Below are positions 690 to 50,098 of a DNA stretch of 64,000 nucleotides, piece by piece. Where the stretch lies: IMG/VR virus record IMGVR_UViG_3300040771_000130, positions 38,195-102,194 of that record. One strand, given 5' to 3'. The stretch's first letter is position 1, and each line of letters begins with the position of its first letter. A program made the position numbers and the translations under genes. The notes beneath the pieces were generated by a model. That model searched no databases and was not told the DNA's origin. It saw nothing but the letters and a program-made list of their open reading frames with translations. Source of the DNA: a virus. Taxonomy: Duplodnaviria; Heunggongvirae; Uroviricota; Caudoviricetes; Crassvirales.

Positions 690-1049
690 TTATTTCCACC
701 AAACTAATTTTACCCACCATTTATCTTGATAATCTCTTTCTTGCTTTAATAAATCTAAAGTTTTTTCCAACTCTTTCTTTCTATTAATAATTTCAATAAA
801 TTTATCACTATATAATAATACAGATTTAGCTACAATTTCTTTAATTTCATTTTCGTAACGACTGTATTCAATATCCATACATCTTCTCCAACTGTGATTT
901 TCAAAAATATAATTTTGAATTGTAACAGAAAAATTATTTAAAGTTCTTTCTATTTGTTGAATGTCTATTCTTAAATTAGATTTTTCACATTCTTTTTCAG
1001 TTTTATGAAATTTATTGTTTTTATCTAAAAATCCACATATTTTTTCCAT
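690..1049 (-). CDS. hypothetical protein
   Basis: 119-aa ORF in the tightly packed minus-strand array (2-nt gap to the helicase gene). Predicted coiled-coil; no motif recognised. Confidence 0.5.
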   Translation of the reverse strand: MEKICGFLDKNNKFHKTEKECEKSNLRIDIQQIERTLNNFSVTIQNYIFENHSWRRCMDIEYSRYENEIKEIVAKSVLLYSDKFIEIINRKKELEKTLDLLKQERDYQDKWWVKLVWWK

Positions 1050-3276: not shown

Positions 3277-4889
3277 GTGTTACACTCATTAATTTCCCTT
3301 GCAAACGATTGTGCTGCATTTTGACTAAACTGATAATAAAGTGTTTTAACACCTTCTTGCCAAGCATAAATATATAATTTATTAATTTCCTTAGTTTCTA
3401 CAGAAGGATGTATTGTTAAATTTACACTTTGAGATTGGTCAATAAATTGTTGTCTTTGAGCTGCTTGTAATACAATTTCTTTTGGTGAAATTTCAATAAA
3501 TGATTTAAAAACTTCTTTAGTTGGGAAATCTAGATGTTGAACAGAACCATCATTTTTAAGAATAGATTCCCATATAGAAGGTGTATCTAATTCGTATTTT
3601 TGAAGTTCCGCAATCAATGCTGGGTTTTTATAAACAGTTTTAATTTTAGCTAAATCTTTAATAAAATAATTAGATTTAATTGGTTCAATTCCCATTGAAA
3701 CTTGACCTAAAATAAAACTACTAGATTTTGTAGGTGCAATTGCTAACAATGTAGTATTTGCAAAACCTTCACGTAAAGATGTAATACCTAAATAATCGTG
3801 ACACCATTTAGAAGCATTATCACTTCTTTCGTTTAAAGTTTTAAATATTTTGTAATTAGCTTGCTTAGCTTCTAAACTTTCAAACTCAATAAGTTTTGAC
3901 TGTAAATAACTATGATAACCTAATACACCTAAACCAATAGCTCTATGATCTTTAGCAAATCTCCAAGCACGTTTCATTCCTGGTAATGTTTCAGATTTAG
4001 TAACAAAATCTGTCATTACAGCATTTAAAAATGTAACATATGTTTCAATAGCATCAGTTTTTTCAATTTCATCCCAATAAAGTAAATTAATTGAACCTAA
4101 ACAACATACAAATGAATTATATGTATCGTTAGGTAATGCTATTTCAGAACATAAATTACTATGTGTAATTTCTAATCCTAATTTGTTATACGGACTGTTT
4201 CTATTTACAGTATCTTTAAACATTAAATACGGAAATCCAAATTCACTTCTTCTTTGAATAACTTTTGCCCAAGTAACTCTTTTTTGAGAATTACCAGCAA
4301 TCATTTCTTCCATGAATTTATCAGTAATAGTTACACCATACTGTAAATTTTGAATAGGATTACCTTCAACACCAATGTCTAAAAATTCATTAATATCTGG
4401 ATGTTCAATAGGTAAATAAACGGCACAAGAACCTCTACGAGTTTCTGATTGTTTAAATACATCAACAATACTATCATAAATTTTAGCATAATGAACAGGT
4501 CCATCAGCATAACCACCAATAGATATTTTACTACCTCTTGGTCTAATATTTCCTAAATAGGCAGATGTTCCACCACCATATTTAGACATCATTCCGATTT
4601 CTCTACCTGCATTTAAAATACTATCTGAAGAATCATCTATGTTTGTTCCAAAACACGAAATAGCTAAACCTTTTTCTTTACCAAAATTAACCCATACTGG
4701 TGTTGATAATGAATAATAACCTTTTTTCATGTAAGATTCAAACTTAAAAGCAAAATCTTTAATTCCTAGTATTTTTTCCGCATGATTTGCAATTTCTTTT
4801 ATCCTTTGCTCAGGACTAACTCCTTCATTTAAATAACCTCTAGATAAGAATGTTCTAGAGTCATTGTTCAACCATTTGTAATCACTCAT
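3267..4889 (-). CDS. nrdA: ribonucleotide reductase class I large (alpha) subunit, short form without ATP-cone
   Basis: Active-site 'SNLCSEI' (NxCxE) motif, glycine-rich 'KYGGGTS', C-terminal Tyr-Tyr 'LYYQF' radical-transfer pair and terminal 'CNTCQ' Cys pair. ATGA-coupled to the beta-subunit gene. At 540 aa it lacks the N-terminal allosteric cone. Confidence 0.8.
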   Translation of the reverse strand: MSDYKWLNNDSRTFLSRGYLNEGVSPEQRIKEIANHAEKILGIKDFAFKFESYMKKGYYSLSTPVWVNFGKEKGLAISCFGTNIDDSSDSILNAGREIGMMSKYGGGTSAYLGNIRPRGSKISIGGYADGPVHYAKIYDSIVDVFKQSETRRGSCAVYLPIEHPDINEFLDIGVEGNPIQNLQYGVTITDKFMEEMIAGNSQKRVTWAKVIQRRSEFGFPYLMFKDTVNRNSPYNKLGLEITHSNLCSEIALPNDTYNSFVCCLGSINLLYWDEIEKTDAIETYVTFLNAVMTDFVTKSETLPGMKRAWRFAKDHRAIGLGVLGYHSYLQSKLIEFESLEAKQANYKIFKTLNERSDNASKWCHDYLGITSLREGFANTTLLAIAPTKSSSFILGQVSMGIEPIKSNYFIKDLAKIKTVYKNPALIAELQKYELDTPSIWESILKNDGSVQHLDFPTKEVFKSFIEISPKEIVLQAAQRQQFIDQSQSVNLTIHPSVETKEINKLYIYAWQEGVKTLYYQFSQNAAQSFAREINECNTCQ

Positions 4890-40365: not shown

Positions 40366-40935
40366 AATTAGTTTGTTTTAGTTTTGTTTTGTTTTATACC
40401 CTCTGTATTCAGTCGTAAAAATAGTAATCATATAGTATAAGCTTATTGTTTAATGGAATTTAATCCAGCTATTTCAGAGATTGTAAATTGTATGGTACAT
40501 ACTAGCATCTCTACATCTATTTTTACAACTGCTAACCCTTGGGAAGTTAGAATGATACATTATTATGCTAGTTACACAACCATATCTAGCAGACATCATT
40601 TACGTTGAACCATGTTTTAACATTGTGTTTATACTCAAAGGGCTGATGACTATATTTTAAAAAATCACTTGTCCATATCTAGTGGAATATTATTAGATAG
40701 TTAAAAACTCATCTAGGCTAATGTTAAGATTTAATACCGTCTAACGGAACATTAGTTATTTACGTTTTGCTAAATCAATATCTTTACATATTAAACACAA
40801 CTGCTAGTACAGTTTAATAATCTATAAATACATTTTCAACATCAACATTGTTTATTAACAAAGTGTACTACAGTATTTATTTAAAGGAATATAGATTATT
40901 GTTTATTTTCAAGCAAGCGATCTTAATTATTTAAT

Positions 40936-41567: not shown

Positions 41568-41747
41568 TTATTCAAATAATATTACAGTAATAACATATAT
41601 TACAAATAATACATAACCATATGCTACGGCAATACCTGATTTGCCACTACTGTTTGGAGTTTTTACAATCCAATTGTGAAATGTGTGACTAATAATTAAT
41701 GTGAATAATAGTATTGTTAACACTATTGATGTGATTGAAATTGTCAT
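41568..41747 (-). CDS. small membrane protein (59 aa)
   Basis: Frame MTISITSIVLTILLFTLIISHTFHNWIVKTPNSSGKSGIAVAYGYVLFVIYVITVILFE with two TM segments; just under the track cutoff. Confidence 0.3.
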   Translation of the reverse strand: MTISITSIVLTILLFTLIISHTFHNWIVKTPNSSGKSGIAVAYGYVLFVIYVITVILFE

Positions 41748-42591
41748 AATGTAAATTGTTTAGTTAATTAGTTAATATTTTGTAATAAATTGTGTGTGAT
41801 AGTATGTAGAATAACTTAATTTAATTAGTTATAATATGTTTGTAAACGCTATAGATTTTATAACGGAATGAATATTTGTGTGTGTGAGTTTAGTGTAATA
41901 TGATGGGATTATTAATTAGTAAGTATTCACCATCTCAACAAATACGCCACTTCACAAAGGTTTTAATAAAATAATAGTAGTTAACTGTCTTACGCATCTA
42001 GACGATTTCCTTACGAATAAAGAATATGTGGATTTGAACCACTATTTTTTAACTACTATCATAATTAAATATTTACTCACTAAATATTAGCACCCTCTTT
42101 CTCATACAAACTTCTCTGCCGCAGCTTTACATTTAAGTTAGATTGGTTAAACAAGAGTAGGGTCACGTAGTTAACCTCATTCGAAATAATCCTGACGAAC
42201 TAAATCAACATAATCTACTTGCTGAGGACTCATTTGTGTTGGATAGAATGAATTTTCCTTAGACTACCTCTTATTTCAAGTATTACTTTCTCAAGGTAAC
42301 AACACATCTACCATTACTGATAGTATCTTTATGATGTGATTTAACGTGTATCATTCATCAATGGATCAATGTTTAGCCAATTTAATTGTAATTAAAGTTT
42401 TAACAGTAAACATGTTTCTTAAACACATATCAATCGTTATTCGATACTTATTTATTTACTATTATTAAACTTTTAATTAAAACTTATTATAACTAATTAT
42501 ATGATTTACTCTAATCGTAGATTATTTCAAAGATTTAAACAATCAAACGCCACAATGGCTAATTAATCATTACACATAATTAGTTATTCTA

Positions 42592-42624
42592 AGTCAAAAA
42601 AATATAAGGACTCCGAAGAGTCCC
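42592..42624 (-). terminator. strong intrinsic terminator (minus strand)
   Basis: GGACTC-TTCG-GAGTCC, a 6-bp GC-rich stem with a tetraloop, is followed on the minus strand by a U-rich tract (UUAUAUUUUUUU), immediately 3' of the 42631 stop. Confidence 0.7.
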
Positions 42625-42630
42625 TATAGA

Positions 42631-43008
42631 TTACGGTTGTGCATTAACAGTCACATCATCGAATACAAGACCAAAGTCTTCTTCAGTAGCGTTGTTACCA
42701 CCTGCAACAAGGTGAGATGTTCTGATGTACATTTTACCGTCATCACCTTTAGATACGGTAGATAGGAATTCTTCACCAACTTGCATACCGTGATTAAACG
42801 ATTTAGCAAAGATTTGTGTAGTAATACCTTTTTTCAATTCACCATTAGCATTGATGAAATCAATAGTACCTAAGTAATAAGTATTCTCCATACCTGATGC
42901 ATTGGTATAAGTTTGTGGAGATGTAGTATTAATAGCTACTAATTTAGCTGGAAAATTGTACTCAGTTTTACCTGTAACAGGATTTACGATTGCTTTGAAA
43001 TTTGACAT
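42631..43008 (-). CDS. hypothetical protein; first gene of the leftward (early) arm
   Basis: 125-aa ORF with GC content visibly above the genome background (non-AT codons such as ACC, GGT, GAC), sitting between the divergent promoter region and a strong terminator. Confidence 0.6.
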   Translation of the reverse strand: MSNFKAIVNPVTGKTEYNFPAKLVAINTTSPQTYTNASGMENTYYLGTIDFINANGELKKGITTQIFAKSFNHGMQVGEEFLSTVSKGDDGKMYIRTSHLVAGGNNATEEDFGLVFDDVTVNAQP

Positions 43009-43564: not shown

Positions 43565-44140
43565 ATGGTCTATTTTATTTCTGATGGTACCTATACCAAA
43601 ATAGGAAAAAGTAATAATCCTCATAGTAGGATTAAGGATTTACAAACAAGTAATCCTAATGAGTTAAAATTTGTTTACATATTTGATTGTAAAGATTATT
43701 GGGAGAAAAAGTTACATACACTTTTAAAACATTATAATTGTAAAGCTAAAAATGAATGGTTTGATTTACGTATGTGTAATTTAGAAGAACATATTAAAAT
43801 ATTAAACTGCTCTACACTACAAGATTTAAATTTAGCAAAGTTTAAAGCAACTCAACTAAATAATCAATTTTATAAAGGAGATGTTCATACAGGTGAATCT
43901 AGAAAAAATAAAATTGATAATTTATATGGAGCTAAGAATAAAGATAAACATAGAAAACTAAGATTACAATTAATTGATGAAATTAAATCACACCTATTCA
44001 AATTAAAAAATAAAATAATATCTTATGATTATTATGTTAAGAAATATGGGTTTACTAAAAATGAAATATCTTTTTTTATGAAAGGGTGTAAATTAAGTAA
44101 AGCTATTTACGAACACAACAAAAAAGTATATAAGGATTAA
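43565..44140 (+). CDS. T5orf172 (Mug113-type, GIY-YIG-like) domain protein
   Basis: N-terminal 'MVYFISDGTYTKIGKSNNPHSRIKDLQTSNP' fits the T5orf172 pattern (vY.i....yiKIGit.n...Rl..lq...p). Confidence 0.5.
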   Translation: MVYFISDGTYTKIGKSNNPHSRIKDLQTSNPNELKFVYIFDCKDYWEKKLHTLLKHYNCKAKNEWFDLRMCNLEEHIKILNCSTLQDLNLAKFKATQLNNQFYKGDVHTGESRKNKIDNLYGAKNKDKHRKLRLQLIDEIKSHLFKLKNKIISYDYYVKKYGFTKNEISFFMKGCKLSKAIYEHNKKVYKD

Positions 44141-48616: not shown

Positions 48617-50098
48617 ATGAAAGAAATACATTTTGGAATAGACGCTAAAGATTTAATTATTGAAGGTATAAACGAATTAAATAAAGCTGTGTCAGCTACT
48701 ATGGGTCCAATGGGAAAAACAGTAATCATACCTAATAAAAATAAGTATGGTGAATACATTGTAACTAAAGACGGTATATCAGTAGCAGAACAAATTAGAT
48801 TTAAAAATCCATTAAAAAATATAGGTGCTGAACTTATTAAACAAGCTGCTAAAAAAACAGTAGAAGATGCTGGAGACGGTACTACTACATCAACTGTATT
48901 AGCTACAGCATTTGTTAATAATCTAAAAGATTTTAATACTGTAGATATTAACAAAGCTTTTGATGAAATCATACCTAAAGTTATAGAACAACTAAAACTA
49001 AATTCAAGACAATTAAAACATGAAGACATTAAATACGTTGCTAGCATATCTGCTAATAACGATTTACAAATTGGTGATATTATTCAACAGGCTTATAACC
49101 ATTCTGATATAGTTAAAATTGAAGAAAGTACTAATATTACAGATGTATTAGAAACACTTCCAGGAATGTTAATTCCAGTAAGTTACTTTTCTAAACATTT
49201 TATTACAAACCAATCTAAAGGTGTTTGTGAATTTGAAAATGTTAATACTTTAATTATTGACGGTAAACTTGAAAAGTTAGAAAACTTTAGAGCATGTTTA
49301 GAAGTAACACAAGATCTATCTAAATCTTTATTAATAATTGCTGAAGATATTCATGAACAAGCTCTTAGAAAGCTGGAAAGTCTTGTATTGACTAACGGGT
49401 TTAAAATATGTGTTATTAAAGCTCCTGGGTTCTCTAAACATCGTAAAGAATTATTAGATGATTTATGTGACTTTACTAATAGTACACTAATTAAAGATTT
49501 ATCTAAATCTTATGATACAACTGTTCTTGGTAAATTACAATCTTGTAAAATATCTAAAAACAATAGTGTATTAGTTAAAGATGAATCTATTGACATCTCT
49601 AAAAAGATAGAAAGTTTAAATAGCTTTTATACTAATATCGATTTAGAAGAGTATGATAAAGATTTACTTAAACAAAGAATAGAATATCTTAAAGGTAAAA
49701 TATCTATTATTAAAGTTGGTGGTAAATCTGAATTAGAAGTAAAAGAACGATACGATAGATATGACGATGCTGTTAAAGCTGTGGCTTGTGCATTAGAAGA
49801 AGGAATTGTTGAAGGTGCAGGTGTGGCTTTATCTAAAATTGAAAATAAATTTAGACAAATGTATGGGTCTAAAGGTGTATATGATGAAATTTTAAAATCA
49901 TTAAATGCACCATATGATAAAATTACTGAAACTACAATTGTAATAAAATTTTATTCTGAATCAATGAGTATGTTTAATCAAAATATCATAGACCCTCTCA
50001 AAGTAACTAGATGTGCATTAGAAAATGCAGTGTCTGTTGCTAAAATTATACTAAGCACTGAAGCTGTGGTATTAAATCAAGAAGAATGGATGAAATAA
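48617..50098 (+). CDS. GroEL-like (Hsp60/Cpn60 family) chaperonin, short form
   Basis: 'AVSATMGPMGKTVII' (GroEL 'VKVTLGPKGRNVVL'), 'TKDGISVAEQI' (TKDGVSVAREI) and ATP-site 'GDGTTTSTVLATAF' (GDGTTTATVLAQA) in order. At 493 aa it has no Gly-Gly-Met tail. Confidence 0.7.
   Translation: MKEIHFGIDAKDLIIEGINELNKAVSATMGPMGKTVIIPNKNKYGEYIVTKDGISVAEQIRFKNPLKNIGAELIKQAAKKTVEDAGDGTTTSTVLATAFVNNLKDFNTVDINKAFDEIIPKVIEQLKLNSRQLKHEDIKYVASISANNDLQIGDIIQQAYNHSDIVKIEESTNITDVLETLPGMLIPVSYFSKHFITNQSKGVCEFENVNTLIIDGKLEKLENFRACLEVTQDLSKSLLIIAEDIHEQALRKLESLVLTNGFKICVIKAPGFSKHRKELLDDLCDFTNSTLIKDLSKSYDTTVLGKLQSCKISKNNSVLVKDESIDISKKIESLNSFYTNIDLEEYDKDLLKQRIEYLKGKISIIKVGGKSELEVKERYDRYDDAVKAVACALEEGIVEGAGVALSKIENKFRQMYGSKGVYDEILKSLNAPYDKITETTIVIKFYSESMSMFNQNIIDPLKVTRCALENAVSVAKIILSTEAVVLNQEEWMK

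What the first reader, a model, noticed from the sequence alone, without database searches (positions are those of the whole stretch)
41760..42600. ~0.85 kb ORF-free, GC-elevated region with a tRNA T-arm-like relic just downstream of the strong early terminator
No ORF of 60 aa or more on either strand, yet the base composition is visibly richer in G/C than flanking coding DNA (for example 'ctgccgcagctttac...gggtcacgtag...gctgaggactc'). It contains GT-rich microrepeats (gtgtgtgtgag, ttagttaattagttaat) and a minus-strand 'AGTGGTTCAAATCCACA' stem-loop identical in form to a tRNA T-arm (42030..42050). Non-coding and GC-rich in a 28% GC phage argues for structured RNA (large ncRNA, ribozyme relic, decayed tRNA cluster) or a replication origin / packaging site.
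Basis: seen in the sequence. Interest (0 to 1): 0.55.

Follow-up and report, generated by a model that had tools for sequence, protein, structure and literature searches.

The report
Conserved structured phage RNA gene
The ORF-free stretch holds a 292-base gene for a pseudoknotted non-coding RNA that recurs in at least 159 uncultivated phage contigs, matches no Rfam family, and has a homologue reported as an abundant RNA of unknown function in the crAss-like phage phi14:2.

Summary
The region has no long ORF, but only its centre is GC-rich: window 42087-42378 is 0.349 GC against 0.262 for the window. That 292-nt core, read on the minus strand, is an intact member of a conserved structured RNA family. 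I recovered 63 distinct full-length copies (249-501 nt), and 159 IMG/VR loci are positive with a profile. Among 185,579 species genomes only 3 MAG contigs hold it, and among 50,697 phage records only Cellulophaga phage phi14:2. Compensatory changes support the fold: 27 of 53 pairs change on both sides, and 0 of 500 shuffles reach that. The fold has a GNRA-capped hairpin and two invariant candidate pseudoknots. No Rfam 15 family matches. Copies are co-oriented with phage tRNA or tmRNA genes and often abut them. The phi14:2 copy lies in an intergenic region reported as highly transcribed, early and persistent, with unknown function. It is a T-loop hairpin in a 92-nt cloverleaf-like accessory domain (41971-42062) homologous to one helix of other family members, not a decayed tRNA. 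ARAGORN's tRNA-Ser call is a false positive. Origin, packaging-site and pseudogene readings are unsupported. The function is unknown, and the closest analogues by genomic setting are ROOL and GOLLD.

The parts
42087..42378 (-). Core ncRNA gene, 292 nt. RNA 5' end GGCUAAACAUUG at 42378; 3' end GAGGGUGCUAA at 42087. Full-length member of the conserved phage RNA family.
   Evidence: nhmmer profile of alignment A1 matches positions 1-293 with E=3.4e-51, and it is the only copy in the window. All invariant blocks are present. GC is 0.349.
42363..42378 (-). H1: 5' hairpin with the near-invariant loop UAAACAUUGA.
   Evidence: The loop is UAAACAUUGA in 120 copies and UGAACAUCGA in 5. That is an A-U to G-C double change inside the loop.
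42332..42360 (-). H2: UGAUG (42360-42356) pairs with CAUCA (42336-42332) and encloses a variable hairpin. The commonest form in other members is UGUAAAU/AUUUACA.
   Evidence: All 7 pairs of this helix change on both sides in A1. The register in the window copy was read by hand from the sequence.
42308..42323 (-). H3: CUAUC/GGUAG hairpin capped by a GNRA tetraloop (A-GUAA-U, loop at 42317-42314).
   Evidence: 5 of 5 pairs change on both sides and 98% of cells are paired. Loop variants in the family are GUAA, GAGA, GUGA and GAAA.
42235..42306 (-). H4 (UGUGUUG/CAACACA) encloses H5 (UUAC/GUAA, 42299-42283, loop CUUGAGAAA) and a variable hairpin H6.
   Evidence: In H4, 6 of 7 pairs change on both sides, for example ACGUGAG/CUCACGU in five aligned members (L106, L136, L147, L163, L172). 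In H5, 3 of 4 pairs change on both sides, with UUCC/GGAA, UUGC/GCAA, UCAC/GUGA and CAAC/GUUG.
42223..42231 (-). Invariant single-stranded GAGU-CCUCA. Candidate pseudoknot PK1 pairs the H5 loop UGAGA (42293-42289) with UCUCA (42227-42223). Candidate PK2 pairs GAGU (42231-42228) with ACUC (42158-42155).
   Evidence: Complementarity is 97-100% across 30 sequences but there is no variation, so covariation neither supports nor refutes it. The window copy reads CCUCA, which gives one A.C mismatch in PK1.
42167..42218 (-). H7: GUAG(A)UUA/UAACUAC stem with a variable apex that contains a GUUC T-loop-like motif.
   Evidence: The closing stem covaries across 63 copies, for example GUGCUUCG/AGAAGUAC and GUGAUUAU/AUAAUCAC. 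Apex sequences are listed.
42092..42163 (-). H8: ACCCU (42163-42159) pairs with AGGGU (42096-42092). It encloses an internal loop and a variable stem. The RNA then ends GCUAA.
   Evidence: 98.7% of cells are paired. One member has a compensatory C-G to U-A change (L087).
42063..42086 (-). AT-rich linker that forms a small hairpin (AUAUUUA-GUGAG-UAAAUAU). ARAGORN mis-read it as an anticodon arm.
41971..42062 (-). Stand-alone cloverleaf-like accessory domain. A 14-bp closing stem (42062-42049 with 41984-41971) carries three arms. Arm 1 is the T-loop hairpin GUGG-UUCAAAU-CCAC (42042-42028). Arm 2 is a 7-bp stem capped by a UUCG loop. Arm 3 is GUCU/AGAC with a 9-nt loop. A U-rich tract follows.
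   Evidence: MFE is -23.0 kcal/mol, z=-3.85, and 0 of 200 shuffles fold as well. The same fold occupies helix H7 of L003 and L014. An 81-nt block (41977-42057) is 92.6% identical to L003, with a C-G to U-A compensatory change in arm 2. The inverted repeat is I20.
42018..42114 (-). ARAGORN 'tRNA-Ser(tga)' call. Judged a false positive that overlaps the RNA 3' end, the linker and the T-loop hairpin.
   Evidence: Rfam tRNA scores 18.1 bits against a gathering score of 29. The acceptor stem has two U.U and two G.U pairs, position 33 is G, and the 'D-arm' is the family's conserved GAAAGAGGGUGCUAA.
42603..42628 (-). Intrinsic terminator of the upstream 125-aa gene (42631-43008). It marks the upstream limit of the non-coding region.
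   Evidence: It is conserved in L001.
42379..42602 (-). AT-rich spacer (GC 0.196), presumed to hold the RNA's promoter. It contains two inverted copies of a 22-nt motif (42573-42594 and 42482-42503) that also occur in L001.
   Evidence: I6; I1 in L001. No promoter has been mapped, so the promoter role is inferred.
41819..41841 (.). Third copy of the motif. It forms a 23-nt inverted repeat (21/23) with 42480-42502. Together the two arms bracket the segment that differs between this phage and its closest relatives.
   Evidence: I2. The match exceeds the best value in all 200 dinucleotide shuffles. Homology to L001 breaks at 42481 and 41853.
41748..41970 (-). Downstream spacer (GC 0.239). Its last ~110 nt (41741-41853) are the conserved leader or promoter region of the next gene (41568-41747).
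   Evidence: 79% identity to L001 and L002 over 116 nt.

Best explanation
Window 42378->42087 (minus strand) is the gene for a stable, trans-acting structured non-coding RNA of a phage-restricted family, which I call here the phi14:2 lncRNA family.

The fold has eight helices. H3 is capped by a GNRA tetraloop. H5 sits inside H4, and its loop can pair with an invariant downstream strand to form an H-type pseudoknot. A second candidate pseudoknot pairs GAGU with ACUC. H7 usually carries a T-loop-like apex. The RNA ends in a long bipartite helix H8 followed by GCUAA.

In this phage a 92-nt cloverleaf-like H7-type module (41971-42062) follows the core after a 24-nt linker.

The gene sits at the head of the leftward replication and early arm. 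That is the same relative place as in the crAss-like phage phi14:2, where the homologous interval is transcribed early, very strongly and persistently.

Shown here: family membership, the conserved secondary structure, the coding strand, restriction to phages, clustering with tRNA and tmRNA genes, and presence/absence among close relatives.

Inferred from adjacency: the RNA is cut out of a longer transcript by the tRNA-processing enzymes RNase P and RNase Z or E wherever a tRNA or tmRNA abuts it. In this phage, which has no tRNA, the cloverleaf plus U-tract may act as the 3' end or processing signal.

Function is a guess, at about 0.25. The invariant single-stranded blocks and the compact pseudoknotted core may bind a conserved host component of the translation or RNA-processing apparatus. 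Alternatively the RNA may self-assemble, as ROOL and GOLLD do. Either way it would act during host takeover. It is not a cis-regulator, an origin or a tRNA.
For: Family and conservation:
- The motifs CAAATGAGTNCTCAGCAAG and ACGTGACCCTACTCT occur in 100 and in at least 119 IMG/VR contigs, 46-119 nt apart. The mode is 68 nt, which is also the window's spacing.
- There are 63 distinct full-length copies.
- 159 viral loci are positive with nhmmer, and the window scores E=3.4e-51 over the full length.

Structure:
- 53 proposed pairs are 91.8% paired, against 36-49% when one partner is slid by 1-3 columns.
- 27 pairs change on both sides, and 0 of 500 shuffles reach any of the five measures.
- RNAalifold finds H3 and H4 independently.
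- H1 and H7 covary in the wider set.

Strand:
- Core helices hold 32 G.U cells against 9 A.C cells.
- Every ARAGORN-called tRNA or tmRNA within 3 kb is on the same strand.
- The phi14:2 transcripts run in the same direction as its copy.

Not coding: the median longest stop-free stretch is 52 codons, and insert lengths vary freely.

Phage-restricted:
- Only 3 of 64 15-mer hits in 185,579 species genomes are real copies. All 3 are MAG contigs (118.6 kb, 100.1 kb and 5.7 kb).
- Only phi14:2 matches among 50,697 phage records.

Expression of a homologue: the phi14:2 copy is NC_021806 2913-3359, starting 9 nt after g004. The g004-g005 and g005-g006 intergenic regions are reported as transcribed above most genes, early and persistently, with 'functions ... 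remain to be determined' (bioRxiv 10.1101/2020.03.07.982082).

RNA-gene clustering:
- 25 of the other 62 distinct copies have an ARAGORN tRNA or tmRNA within 3 kb.
- Motif scans find a tmRNA 5' end within 400 nt downstream in 8 copies, seven of them 42-91 nt after the 3' end. A type-II-like tRNA starts 4-40 nt after the 3' end in 4 copies. A tRNA T-arm ends 14-19 nt before the 5' end in 5 copies.

Synteny: the window has a replication arm on the minus strand and a structural arm on the plus strand. Its DNA polymerase gene is 72.8% identical in DNA to that of phi14:2.
Against: - There are no expression data for this phage, and no promoter or 3' end is mapped.
- The window copy's minimum free energy is no better than shuffles (z=+0.86). 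Support for the fold rests on covariation, not on stability.
- Both pseudoknots are invariant and so untested.
- The window copy has one mismatch in PK1 and a bulged A in H7.
- The closest relatives L001 and L002 lack the RNA at the syntenic site, so it is dispensable.
- No conserved protein partner lies nearby. The best neighbouring family occurs in 11 of 63 loci.
- The assignment of the phi14:2 transcript to this RNA rests on coordinates, because the paper's tables were not available.
- The function is unknown.
Confidence: 0.85

Rival explanations
1. A decayed or unusual tRNA gene: the tRNA-Ser(UGA) called at 42018-42114, or a relic of a tRNA cluster.
For: ARAGORN calls it and calls nothing in 60 dinucleotide shuffles of the window. 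The T-loop hairpin is a good match to the consensus. Family members sit in tRNA clusters.
Against: Rfam tRNA scores 18.1 bits against a gathering score of 29, with E=1.6. The acceptor stem has two U.U and two G.U pairs, position 33 is G rather than U, and the T stem has only 4 pairs. The 'D-arm' is the family's conserved 3' end, which pairs with ACCCU in H8. The sequence 3' of the 'acceptor' is conserved with L003 and folds with the T-hairpin into a different, more stable cloverleaf that has a compensatory change.
Confidence: 0.05
2. A long structured cis-acting leader, of riboswitch or attenuator type, that controls the downstream small genes (41747 leftward).
For: It is on the same strand as the next genes and upstream of them. 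In several loci a coding gene starts 20-40 nt after the RNA's 3' end.
Against: What lies downstream varies: tRNA, tmRNA, intrinsic terminators, a second RNA copy, or unrelated genes. The window has 340 nt and a separately conserved promoter-like region between the RNA and the next gene. The phi14:2 RNA persists while other early transcripts fall.
Confidence: 0.05
3. A selfish or mobile RNA-encoding cassette, such as a degenerate intron-like ribozyme or a recombination cassette, maintained by its own spread and not by any service to the phage.
For: Presence/absence among close relatives, with L001 retaining both flanks. A 23-nt inverted repeat sits at the cassette borders. Tandem copies exist in L039 and L107. 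The 81-nt cloverleaf block is 92.6% identical between unrelated contigs and sits at a different position in each.
Against: No conserved flanking 'exon' or target sequence is seen. No associated recombinase, reverse transcriptase or homing endonuclease is seen. No Rfam group I, group II or other ribozyme model matches at E<=10. Very strong, persistent expression in phi14:2 and near-invariant single-stranded blocks suggest a function in trans.
Confidence: 0.07
4. A replication origin or packaging site.
For: The cumulative GC-skew minimum lies nearby at 40846, close to a divergent strand switch. The spacers are AT-rich.
Against: The skew minimum is a flat plateau from 40.0 to 43.5 kb that follows the coding-strand switch. 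There are no iterons or tandem arrays beyond trivial AT-rich repeats. The conserved element shows strand-specific base-pair covariation with G.U pairs, which a DNA site would not. The element occurs in many unrelated genomic contexts.
Confidence: 0.02
5. A recently pseudogenised protein-coding gene.
For: None beyond the absence of ORFs.
Against: No relative has an ORF here. The small ORFs once annotated over the phi14:2 copy were removed from RefSeq. Inserts of arbitrary length and compensatory pair changes are the opposite of codon-type conservation.
Confidence: 0.01

Closest known systems
The 'long non-coding RNA' of the g004-g005 intergenic region of Cellulophaga phage phi14:2 (Drobysheva et al., bioRxiv 10.1101/2020.03.07.982082)
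   Same: It is a homologue. The phi14:2 copy (NC_021806 2913-3359) contains every conserved block, and the conserved blocks aligned by blastn are 93% identical to a typical family member. It occupies the same place at the head of the early and replication arm. It was reported as transcribed above most genes, early and persistently.
   Different: The paper reports only transcription of an intergenic region. I found no description of a structure, boundaries, a family or a function in the library searched. The phi14:2 copy is 447 nt with larger peripheral inserts and is followed by a tmRNA, which this window lacks.
ROOL (Rfam RF03087) and GOLLD (RF01998) large phage RNAs
   Same: The genomic setting is the same: encoded by phages, often beside tRNA islands, highly structured with pseudoknots, no known protein partner and unknown function (PMC12286853). 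Peripheral tRNA-like or T-loop modules recall the tRNAs embedded in GOLLD linkers.
   Different: No Rfam model matches at all, at E<=10 on the window region and on a typical member and at gathering on the whole window and four other loci. This RNA is shorter: 249-501 nt, against roughly 580 nt for ROOL (my recollection) and over 800 nt for many GOLLD members. Its hosts appear to be Bacteroidota-type phages. Formation of a multimeric cage has not been tested.
tRNA and tRNA-like structures (Rfam RF00005)
   Same: A T-loop hairpin GUGG-UUCAAAU-CCAC sits within a four-way junction. ARAGORN is triggered by it.
   Different: It fails the acceptor, U33, D-arm and score criteria. The arm order is T-like arm first. 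The domain is homologous to helix H7 of the RNA family.
Phage T4 stable RNAs C and D in the T4 tRNA gene cluster (from my own knowledge, not tested here)
   Same: They are stable phage RNAs of unknown function, co-transcribed with and processed alongside phage tRNAs.
   Different: They are much smaller (~140 nt) and I know of no sequence or structural relationship. This is an analogy of setting only.

Membership tests
phi14:2-type phage structured RNA family (defined here) | Conserved blocks in order: UAAACAUUGA; ACAUAAAGAUAC; CCUUGAGAAAGG; CAAAUGAGUUCUCAGCAAGUAG; ACUACGUGACCCUACUCU; GAGGGUGCUAA | tested here: met
   All blocks are present at 42378-42087 on the minus strand. The full-length profile match has E=3.4e-51. 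There are single substitutions in three of the blocks (UCAUAAAGAUAC, GAGUCCUCAG and GUAGAUUA), and the H5 closing pair beside the CCUUGAGAAAG loop is A-U instead of C-G.
phi14:2-type phage structured RNA family (defined here) | Helices H1-H5, H7 and H8 can form, and H3 carries a GNRA cap | tested here: met
   The helices map to window coordinates. H2 forms as UGAUG/CAUCA, a compensated variant. H3 has a GUAA loop. H7 has one bulged A.
phi14:2-type phage structured RNA family (defined here) | Transcribed as a discrete stable RNA | not testable with these tools
   The only evidence is the phi14:2 homologue's interval, which is reported as highly transcribed.
tRNA (RF00005 / ARAGORN) | Covariance-model score at or above the gathering score of 29 bits | tested here: not met
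   18.1 bits, E=1.6. There is no match at gathering threshold in the whole window.
tRNA (RF00005 / ARAGORN) | 7-bp acceptor stem, U33, D-arm with conserved G18/G19, 5-bp T stem with T-loop | tested here: not met
   The acceptor has 2 U.U and 2 G.U pairs. Position 33 is G. The 'D-arm' is the family's 3' end. The T stem has 4 bp. Only the T-loop fits.
tmRNA (RF00023) | tRNA-like domain plus tag reading frame, detected by ARAGORN or Rfam | tested here: not met
   None is found in the window. tmRNAs are present beside the RNA in other loci.
ROOL (RF03087) / GOLLD (RF01998) | Match to the family covariance model | tested here: not met
   There is no hit at E<=10 on the window region or on a typical member, and none at gathering on the whole window or on four other loci.
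ROOL (RF03087) / GOLLD (RF01998) | Phage-encoded and near tRNA islands | tested here: met
   for the family. The window itself has no tRNA gene.
ROOL (RF03087) / GOLLD (RF01998) | Homo-oligomeric RNA-only cage | not testable with these tools
   This needs native gels or cryo-EM.
Group I intron, RNase P RNA, and other large ribozymes in Rfam | Match to the family covariance model; for introns, conserved flanking exons | tested here: not met
   No hit at E<=10. Flanks are unrelated between loci.
Replication origin / packaging site | Iterons or clustered repeats, a sharp skew inflection, and conservation at the DNA level only | tested here: not met
   No iterons. The skew plateau spans 3.5 kb. 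Conservation follows RNA base pairing.

The most novel reading that the evidence does not exclude
This may be a new class of large phage-specific functional RNA. It would be either a ribozyme or an RNA-only or RNP machine that acts on the host's translation or tRNA/tmRNA-processing apparatus during takeover. It is unrelated in sequence and fold to ROOL, GOLLD, RNase P and introns. It is common in uncultivated phages, with Cellulophaga phage phi14:2 as a ready culturable model.
Probability: 0.3. Interest if true: 0.9.

Novelty: new variant of a known kind. Interest (0 to 1): 0.78.

Why it matters
Large, highly conserved structured RNAs without a known function are rare, and past examples have turned out to be ribozymes, riboswitches or striking RNA-only assemblies.

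This family has several features that make it worth study:
- It has near-invariant 15-20-nt blocks across at least 159 phage contigs.
- Its fold is pseudoknotted, GNRA-capped and supported by covariation.
- It matches no Rfam family.
- It sits among phage tRNA and tmRNA genes.
- Its homologue in phi14:2, which can be grown in the laboratory on its host Cellulophaga baltica, lies in one of the most strongly transcribed intervals of that phage.

That combination makes the unexplained 'lncRNA' of phi14:2 directly testable, because its boundaries, structure and mutational targets are now defined. It adds a third candidate to the ROOL/GOLLD type of phage RNA. It also warns annotators that ARAGORN tRNA calls and small ORFs in such regions are artefacts.

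Tried and rejected
- Rfam at gathering on the whole window and on four homologous loci, and at E<=10 on the region and on a typical member, gave only sub-threshold chance hits. The one relevant hit was tRNA at 18 bits.
- blastn of the region against 50,697 phage records gave nothing for the 1.8-kb region and only phi14:2 for the RNA. A 46-nt consensus block found nothing.
- Pfam and PHROGs on flanking small proteins show orphans, so they give no functional lead.
- Clustering of neighbouring proteins over 63 loci found no conserved partner.
- A genome-wide 15-mer scan gave 64 hits, of which 61 are chance matches in unrelated taxa.
- Single-sequence folding of the core is not more stable than shuffles and does not recover the consensus fold. 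It was discarded in favour of covariation.
- I first read the window as a 'permuted' version of the L003 RNA. I rejected this once 50 loci showed that the window has the common spacing and that L003 carries an enlarged H7.
- nhmmer on the 350 nt downstream of the core found no second copy. Only a 13-nt identity at 41951-41963 (E~0.05) hints at a relic.
- I considered the purine-rich 3' end AGAAAGAGGGUG as a Shine-Dalgarno mimic. This rests on my own recollection of the 16S rRNA 3' tail. I did not pursue it because AGGGU is base-paired in H8 with one compensatory change.
- Supplements that might list this RNA were not available (Fremin et al. 2023 csRNA tables; Drobysheva et al. tables). A 2026 preprint on ncRNA mining was listed but is not held.
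- I did not build a covariance model, because a ~290-position model would probably exceed the calibration limit.
Full report
**1. The observation**

The interval between the 59-aa ORF that ends at 41747 and the 125-aa gene at 42631-43008 (both minus strand) holds one ORF of 30 aa or more. It is a 40-aa plus-strand ORF at 42346-42468.

The 125-aa gene is followed by a strong intrinsic terminator at 42628-42603, with an 11-bp stem, a UUCG loop and a U7 tail.

The claimed GC elevation is real only locally:

| Segment | GC |
|---|---|
| Whole window | 0.262 |
| Finding, 41760-42600 | 0.270 |
| Core, 42087-42378 | 0.349 (top 3.7% of 292-nt windows) |
| Upstream spacer | 0.196 |
| Downstream spacer | 0.239 |

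The two microrepeats exist, at 41878-41888 and 41760-41776. The T-arm-like hairpin exists on the minus strand at 42028-42042.

**2. Genomic setting**

- Genes from 690 to 43008 run leftward and include ribonucleotide reductase and DNA polymerase.
- Genes from 43565 onward run rightward and include terminase, portal and major head protein.
- The only nucleotide match among 50,697 phage records is the DNA polymerase gene of the crAss-like Cellulophaga phage phi14:2, at 72.8%.
- The non-coding region therefore lies at the head of the leftward replication and early arm, one gene away from the divergent switch.

**3. What the region contains**

ARAGORN calls one tRNA-Ser(UGA) at 42018-42114 on the minus strand. 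Rfam finds nothing at gathering threshold in the whole window. At E<=10 it finds only an 18-bit tRNA hit, against a gathering score of 29.

Relatives were found through the flanking 125-aa protein (L001 and L002, 82% identity) and through an exact 25-mer (L003). L003 is an unrelated contig that shares several short blocks with the window.

Two of those blocks were scanned across IMG/VR. CAAATGAGTNCTCAGCAAG occurs in 100 contigs. Fifty loci hold both motifs, 46-119 nt apart. The commonest spacing is 68 nt, which is exactly the window's spacing.

Reading the loci showed one common architecture:

5'-AGGUUAAACAUUGAAUACCUUUGUAAAU-[variable]-AUUUACAUAAAGAUACUAUCAGUAAUGGUAGAUGUGUUGUUCCCUUGAGAAAGGAAU-[variable]-ACAACACAAAUGAGUUCUCAGCAAGUAGUUAA-[variable]-UUAACUACGUGACCCUACUCUUAUA-[variable]-UAUAAGAAAGAGGGUGCUAA-3'

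Sixty-three distinct full-length copies of 249-501 nt were extracted. The window's copy is 292 nt, from 42378 to 42087 on the minus strand. A profile built from 30 of them matches the window once, over its full length, at E=3.4e-51. It matches 159 of the IMG/VR loci fetched for the two motifs.

**4. It is a structured RNA**

I tested a 53-pair structure on the 30-sequence alignment A1:

| Measure | Result |
|---|---|
| Cells forming standard pairs | 91.8% |
| Same, with 3' partners slid 1-3 columns | 36-49% |
| Pairs with changes on both sides | 27 of 53 |
| Shuffles reaching any of the five measures | 0 of 500 |

Examples of compensatory change:
- H4 alternates between GUGUUG/CAACAC and CGUGAG/CUCACG.
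- H5 takes the forms UUCC/GGAA, UUGC/GCAA, UCAC/GUGA and CAAC/GUUG.
- H3 takes the forms CUAUC/GGUAG, ACAUA/UAUGU and CCAGU/ACUGG.

RNAalifold recovers H3 and H4 on its own. In the wider set the H1 loop shows an A-U to G-C double change (120 against 5 copies). The H7 closing stem also covaries.

H3 is always capped by a GNRA tetraloop: GUAA, GAGA, GUGA or GAAA. Two candidate pseudoknots are perfectly complementary but never vary, so they remain untested. One pairs the H5 loop UGAGA with UCUCA. The other pairs GAGU with ACUC.

Three lines of evidence fix the strand:
- Core helices hold 32 G.U cells against 9 A.C cells.
- Every ARAGORN-called tRNA and tmRNA within 3 kb is on the same strand.
- The phi14:2 transcripts run in the same direction as its copy.

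There is no conserved reading frame. Single-sequence folding of the window copy is not unusually stable (z=+0.86), so the support is evolutionary and not thermodynamic.

**5. Distribution and context**

- A 15-mer scan of one genome from each of 185,579 bacterial and archaeal species gave 64 hits. Only three carry the other motifs, and all three are MAG contigs (118.6 kb, 100.1 kb and 5.7 kb).
- Among deposited phage genomes only phi14:2 has the RNA.
- No protein family recurs nearby. The best occurs in 11 of 63 loci.
- RNA genes do recur. Twenty-five of the other 62 distinct copies have an ARAGORN tRNA or tmRNA within 3 kb.
- Motif scans find a tmRNA 5' end within 400 nt downstream in eight copies, seven of them 42-91 nt after the 3' end. 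A type-II-like tRNA starts 4-40 nt after the 3' end in four copies. A tRNA T-arm ends 14-19 nt before the 5' end in five copies.
- L039 carries a second, divergent copy 3 nt after the first.

This adjacency is the basis for my inference that the ends are made by tRNA-processing enzymes.

**6. Evidence of expression in a homologue**

The phi14:2 copy is NC_021806 2913-3359. It starts 9 nt after g004, and a tmRNA lies at 4031-4500. RefSeq has removed the small ORFs once annotated over this 1.7-kb interval.

Drobysheva et al. report two long intergenic regions, the g004-g005 and g005-g006 junctions. They state that these are transcribed above most protein-coding genes. Transcription is rightward, runs from the earliest time point and does not decline. 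[quoted passage not shown]

By coordinates, the first of these intervals contains this RNA and the second probably contains the tmRNA. This is my inference, because the paper's tables were not available.

**7. The 'T-arm'**

The 81-nt block at 41977-42057 is 92.6% identical to part of L003. In L003 and L014 the same sequence type forms the enlarged apex of helix H7.

In the window it stands alone, 24 nt after the core's 3' end. It is closed by a 14-bp stem (41971-41984 with 42049-42062) and has three arms:
- Arm 1 is the T-loop hairpin.
- Arm 2 is a 7-bp stem capped by a UUCG loop.
- Arm 3 is a 4-bp stem with a 9-nt loop.

The fold has an MFE of -23 kcal/mol and z=-3.85. Arm 2 differs from L003 by a compensatory C-G to U-A change.

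T-loop-like GUUCA motifs are common at H7 apices, and T-arm-like hairpins occur in other peripheral positions in L046 and L070.

ARAGORN's tRNA-Ser is triggered by this real T-loop, since it made no call in 60 shuffles. But it has a poor acceptor stem and G33, and it uses the family's conserved 3' end as its D-arm. I reject it as a tRNA.

I cannot decide whether the stand-alone cloverleaf is a 3' extension or processing signal of the RNA, or a relic of a second copy. A 13-nt identity to family positions 13-25 at 41951-41963 (E~0.05) hints at the second.

**8. Presence and absence among relatives**

L001 and L002 are homologous to the window up to 42481 and again from 41853. Between those points they hold about 400 nt of different non-coding DNA and no copy of the RNA.

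That DNA matches the region just upstream of the RNA in L091 and the region just downstream of the RNA in L115. So the RNA itself is absent between flanks that are retained.

A 23-nt inverted repeat (21/23) sits at the window's cassette borders, at 42480-42502 and 41819-41841. It exceeds the best value in all 200 shuffles. A third copy of the motif lies at 42573-42594, and the upstream pair is conserved in L001. The RNA is therefore an accessory, exchangeable gene.

**9. Rivals**

- An origin or packaging site is unsupported. The GC-skew minimum is a 3.5-kb plateau at the strand switch, and there are no iterons.
- A cis-acting leader is unlikely, because what lies downstream varies from locus to locus.
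- A pseudogene is excluded.
- A selfish mobile cassette is not excluded. However, no enzyme, target site or ribozyme model supports it.

**10. Comparison with known systems and novelty**

No Rfam 15 family matches. Literature searches found no description of this family. They found only the phi14:2 transcription remark and a large catalogue of short candidate phage RNAs (mean length 67 nt) whose tables I could not read.

By setting, the closest analogues are ROOL and GOLLD. Both are phage-encoded, sit beside tRNA islands, are pseudoknotted and have unknown function (PMC12286853). Membership fails the model test.

I rate this RNA as a new class within the known kind of large phage structured RNAs. 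The function is unknown. My best guess, at about 0.25, is a trans-acting RNA that binds a conserved host translation or RNA-processing component, or that self-assembles during host takeover.

Noticed in passing
L001 6520-6925 (same in L002); window 41854-42480: The closest relatives lack the RNA at the syntenic site. Their ~400-nt replacement matches the upstream flank of the RNA in L091 and the downstream flank in L115. The ~200-nt downstream-flank element is 80% conserved between L001 and L115 and may be another non-coding element.
   Followed up: partly
window 42573-42594, 42480-42503, 41819-41841: Three copies of a ~22-nt AT-rich motif (core ATAACTAATTAT) lie in alternating orientation around the RNA cassette. 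The outer inverted pair matches 21/23, above all 200 shuffles, and the upstream hairpin pair is conserved in L001. They could be promoters or operators, an RNase III-type bracketing stem, or recombination sites.
   Followed up: partly
window 42631-43008 (-): An orphan 125-aa gene is the first gene of the leftward arm. It is unusually GC-rich (0.349), has an acidic C-terminal tail (EEDFGLVFDD) and is followed by the strong terminator. It has no Pfam or PHROG match and is 82% identical in L001 and L002.
   Followed up: partly
L003 560-665 (-); downstream of the RNA in L005, L082, L100, L133, L134: A recurrent type-II-like tRNA gene begins AGTCAGGTGGCGGAA and has a long or odd anticodon-arm region. 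ARAGORN called none in L003 or L100 and mis-typed or placed calls elsewhere in the others. These may be unusual tRNAs, for example intron-containing or with an expanded loop.
   Followed up: no
L173 3413-3884 (NC_021806 4031-4500); L003 1-126; L006, L014, L087, L095, L099, L117: Phage-encoded tmRNA genes lie directly downstream of the RNA in several phages. The phi14:2 tmRNA scores 46 bits, one bit under Rfam's gathering score of 47, and is not annotated in RefSeq.
   Followed up: partly
L041, L058, L117, L172, L030 (just upstream of the RNA); L003 ~690-730 (-): A recurrent small hairpin-like element, AGCTAAGCTGTGTAAAGC...GAAGCTA, lies immediately upstream of the RNA or of the neighbouring tRNA in several loci.
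   Followed up: no
L039 ~4366 onward; L107 5-19 and 309-323: Tandem copies of the RNA exist. In L039 a divergent second copy starts 3 nt after the first, with different H3 and H4 sequences, which suggests subfamilies.
   Followed up: no
window 41951-41963 (-): A 13-nt stretch, AAACCTTTGTGAA, is identical to positions 13-25 of typical family members and lies just after the cloverleaf. It may be a relic of a second copy or may be chance (E~0.05).
   Followed up: partly
window 43565-44140 (+) and 48617-50098 (+): The first gene of the rightward arm encodes a T5orf172/MUG113-domain protein, a domain found in homing-endonuclease-like proteins. A GroEL-like chaperonin gene lies just upstream of the terminase gene.
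   Followed up: no
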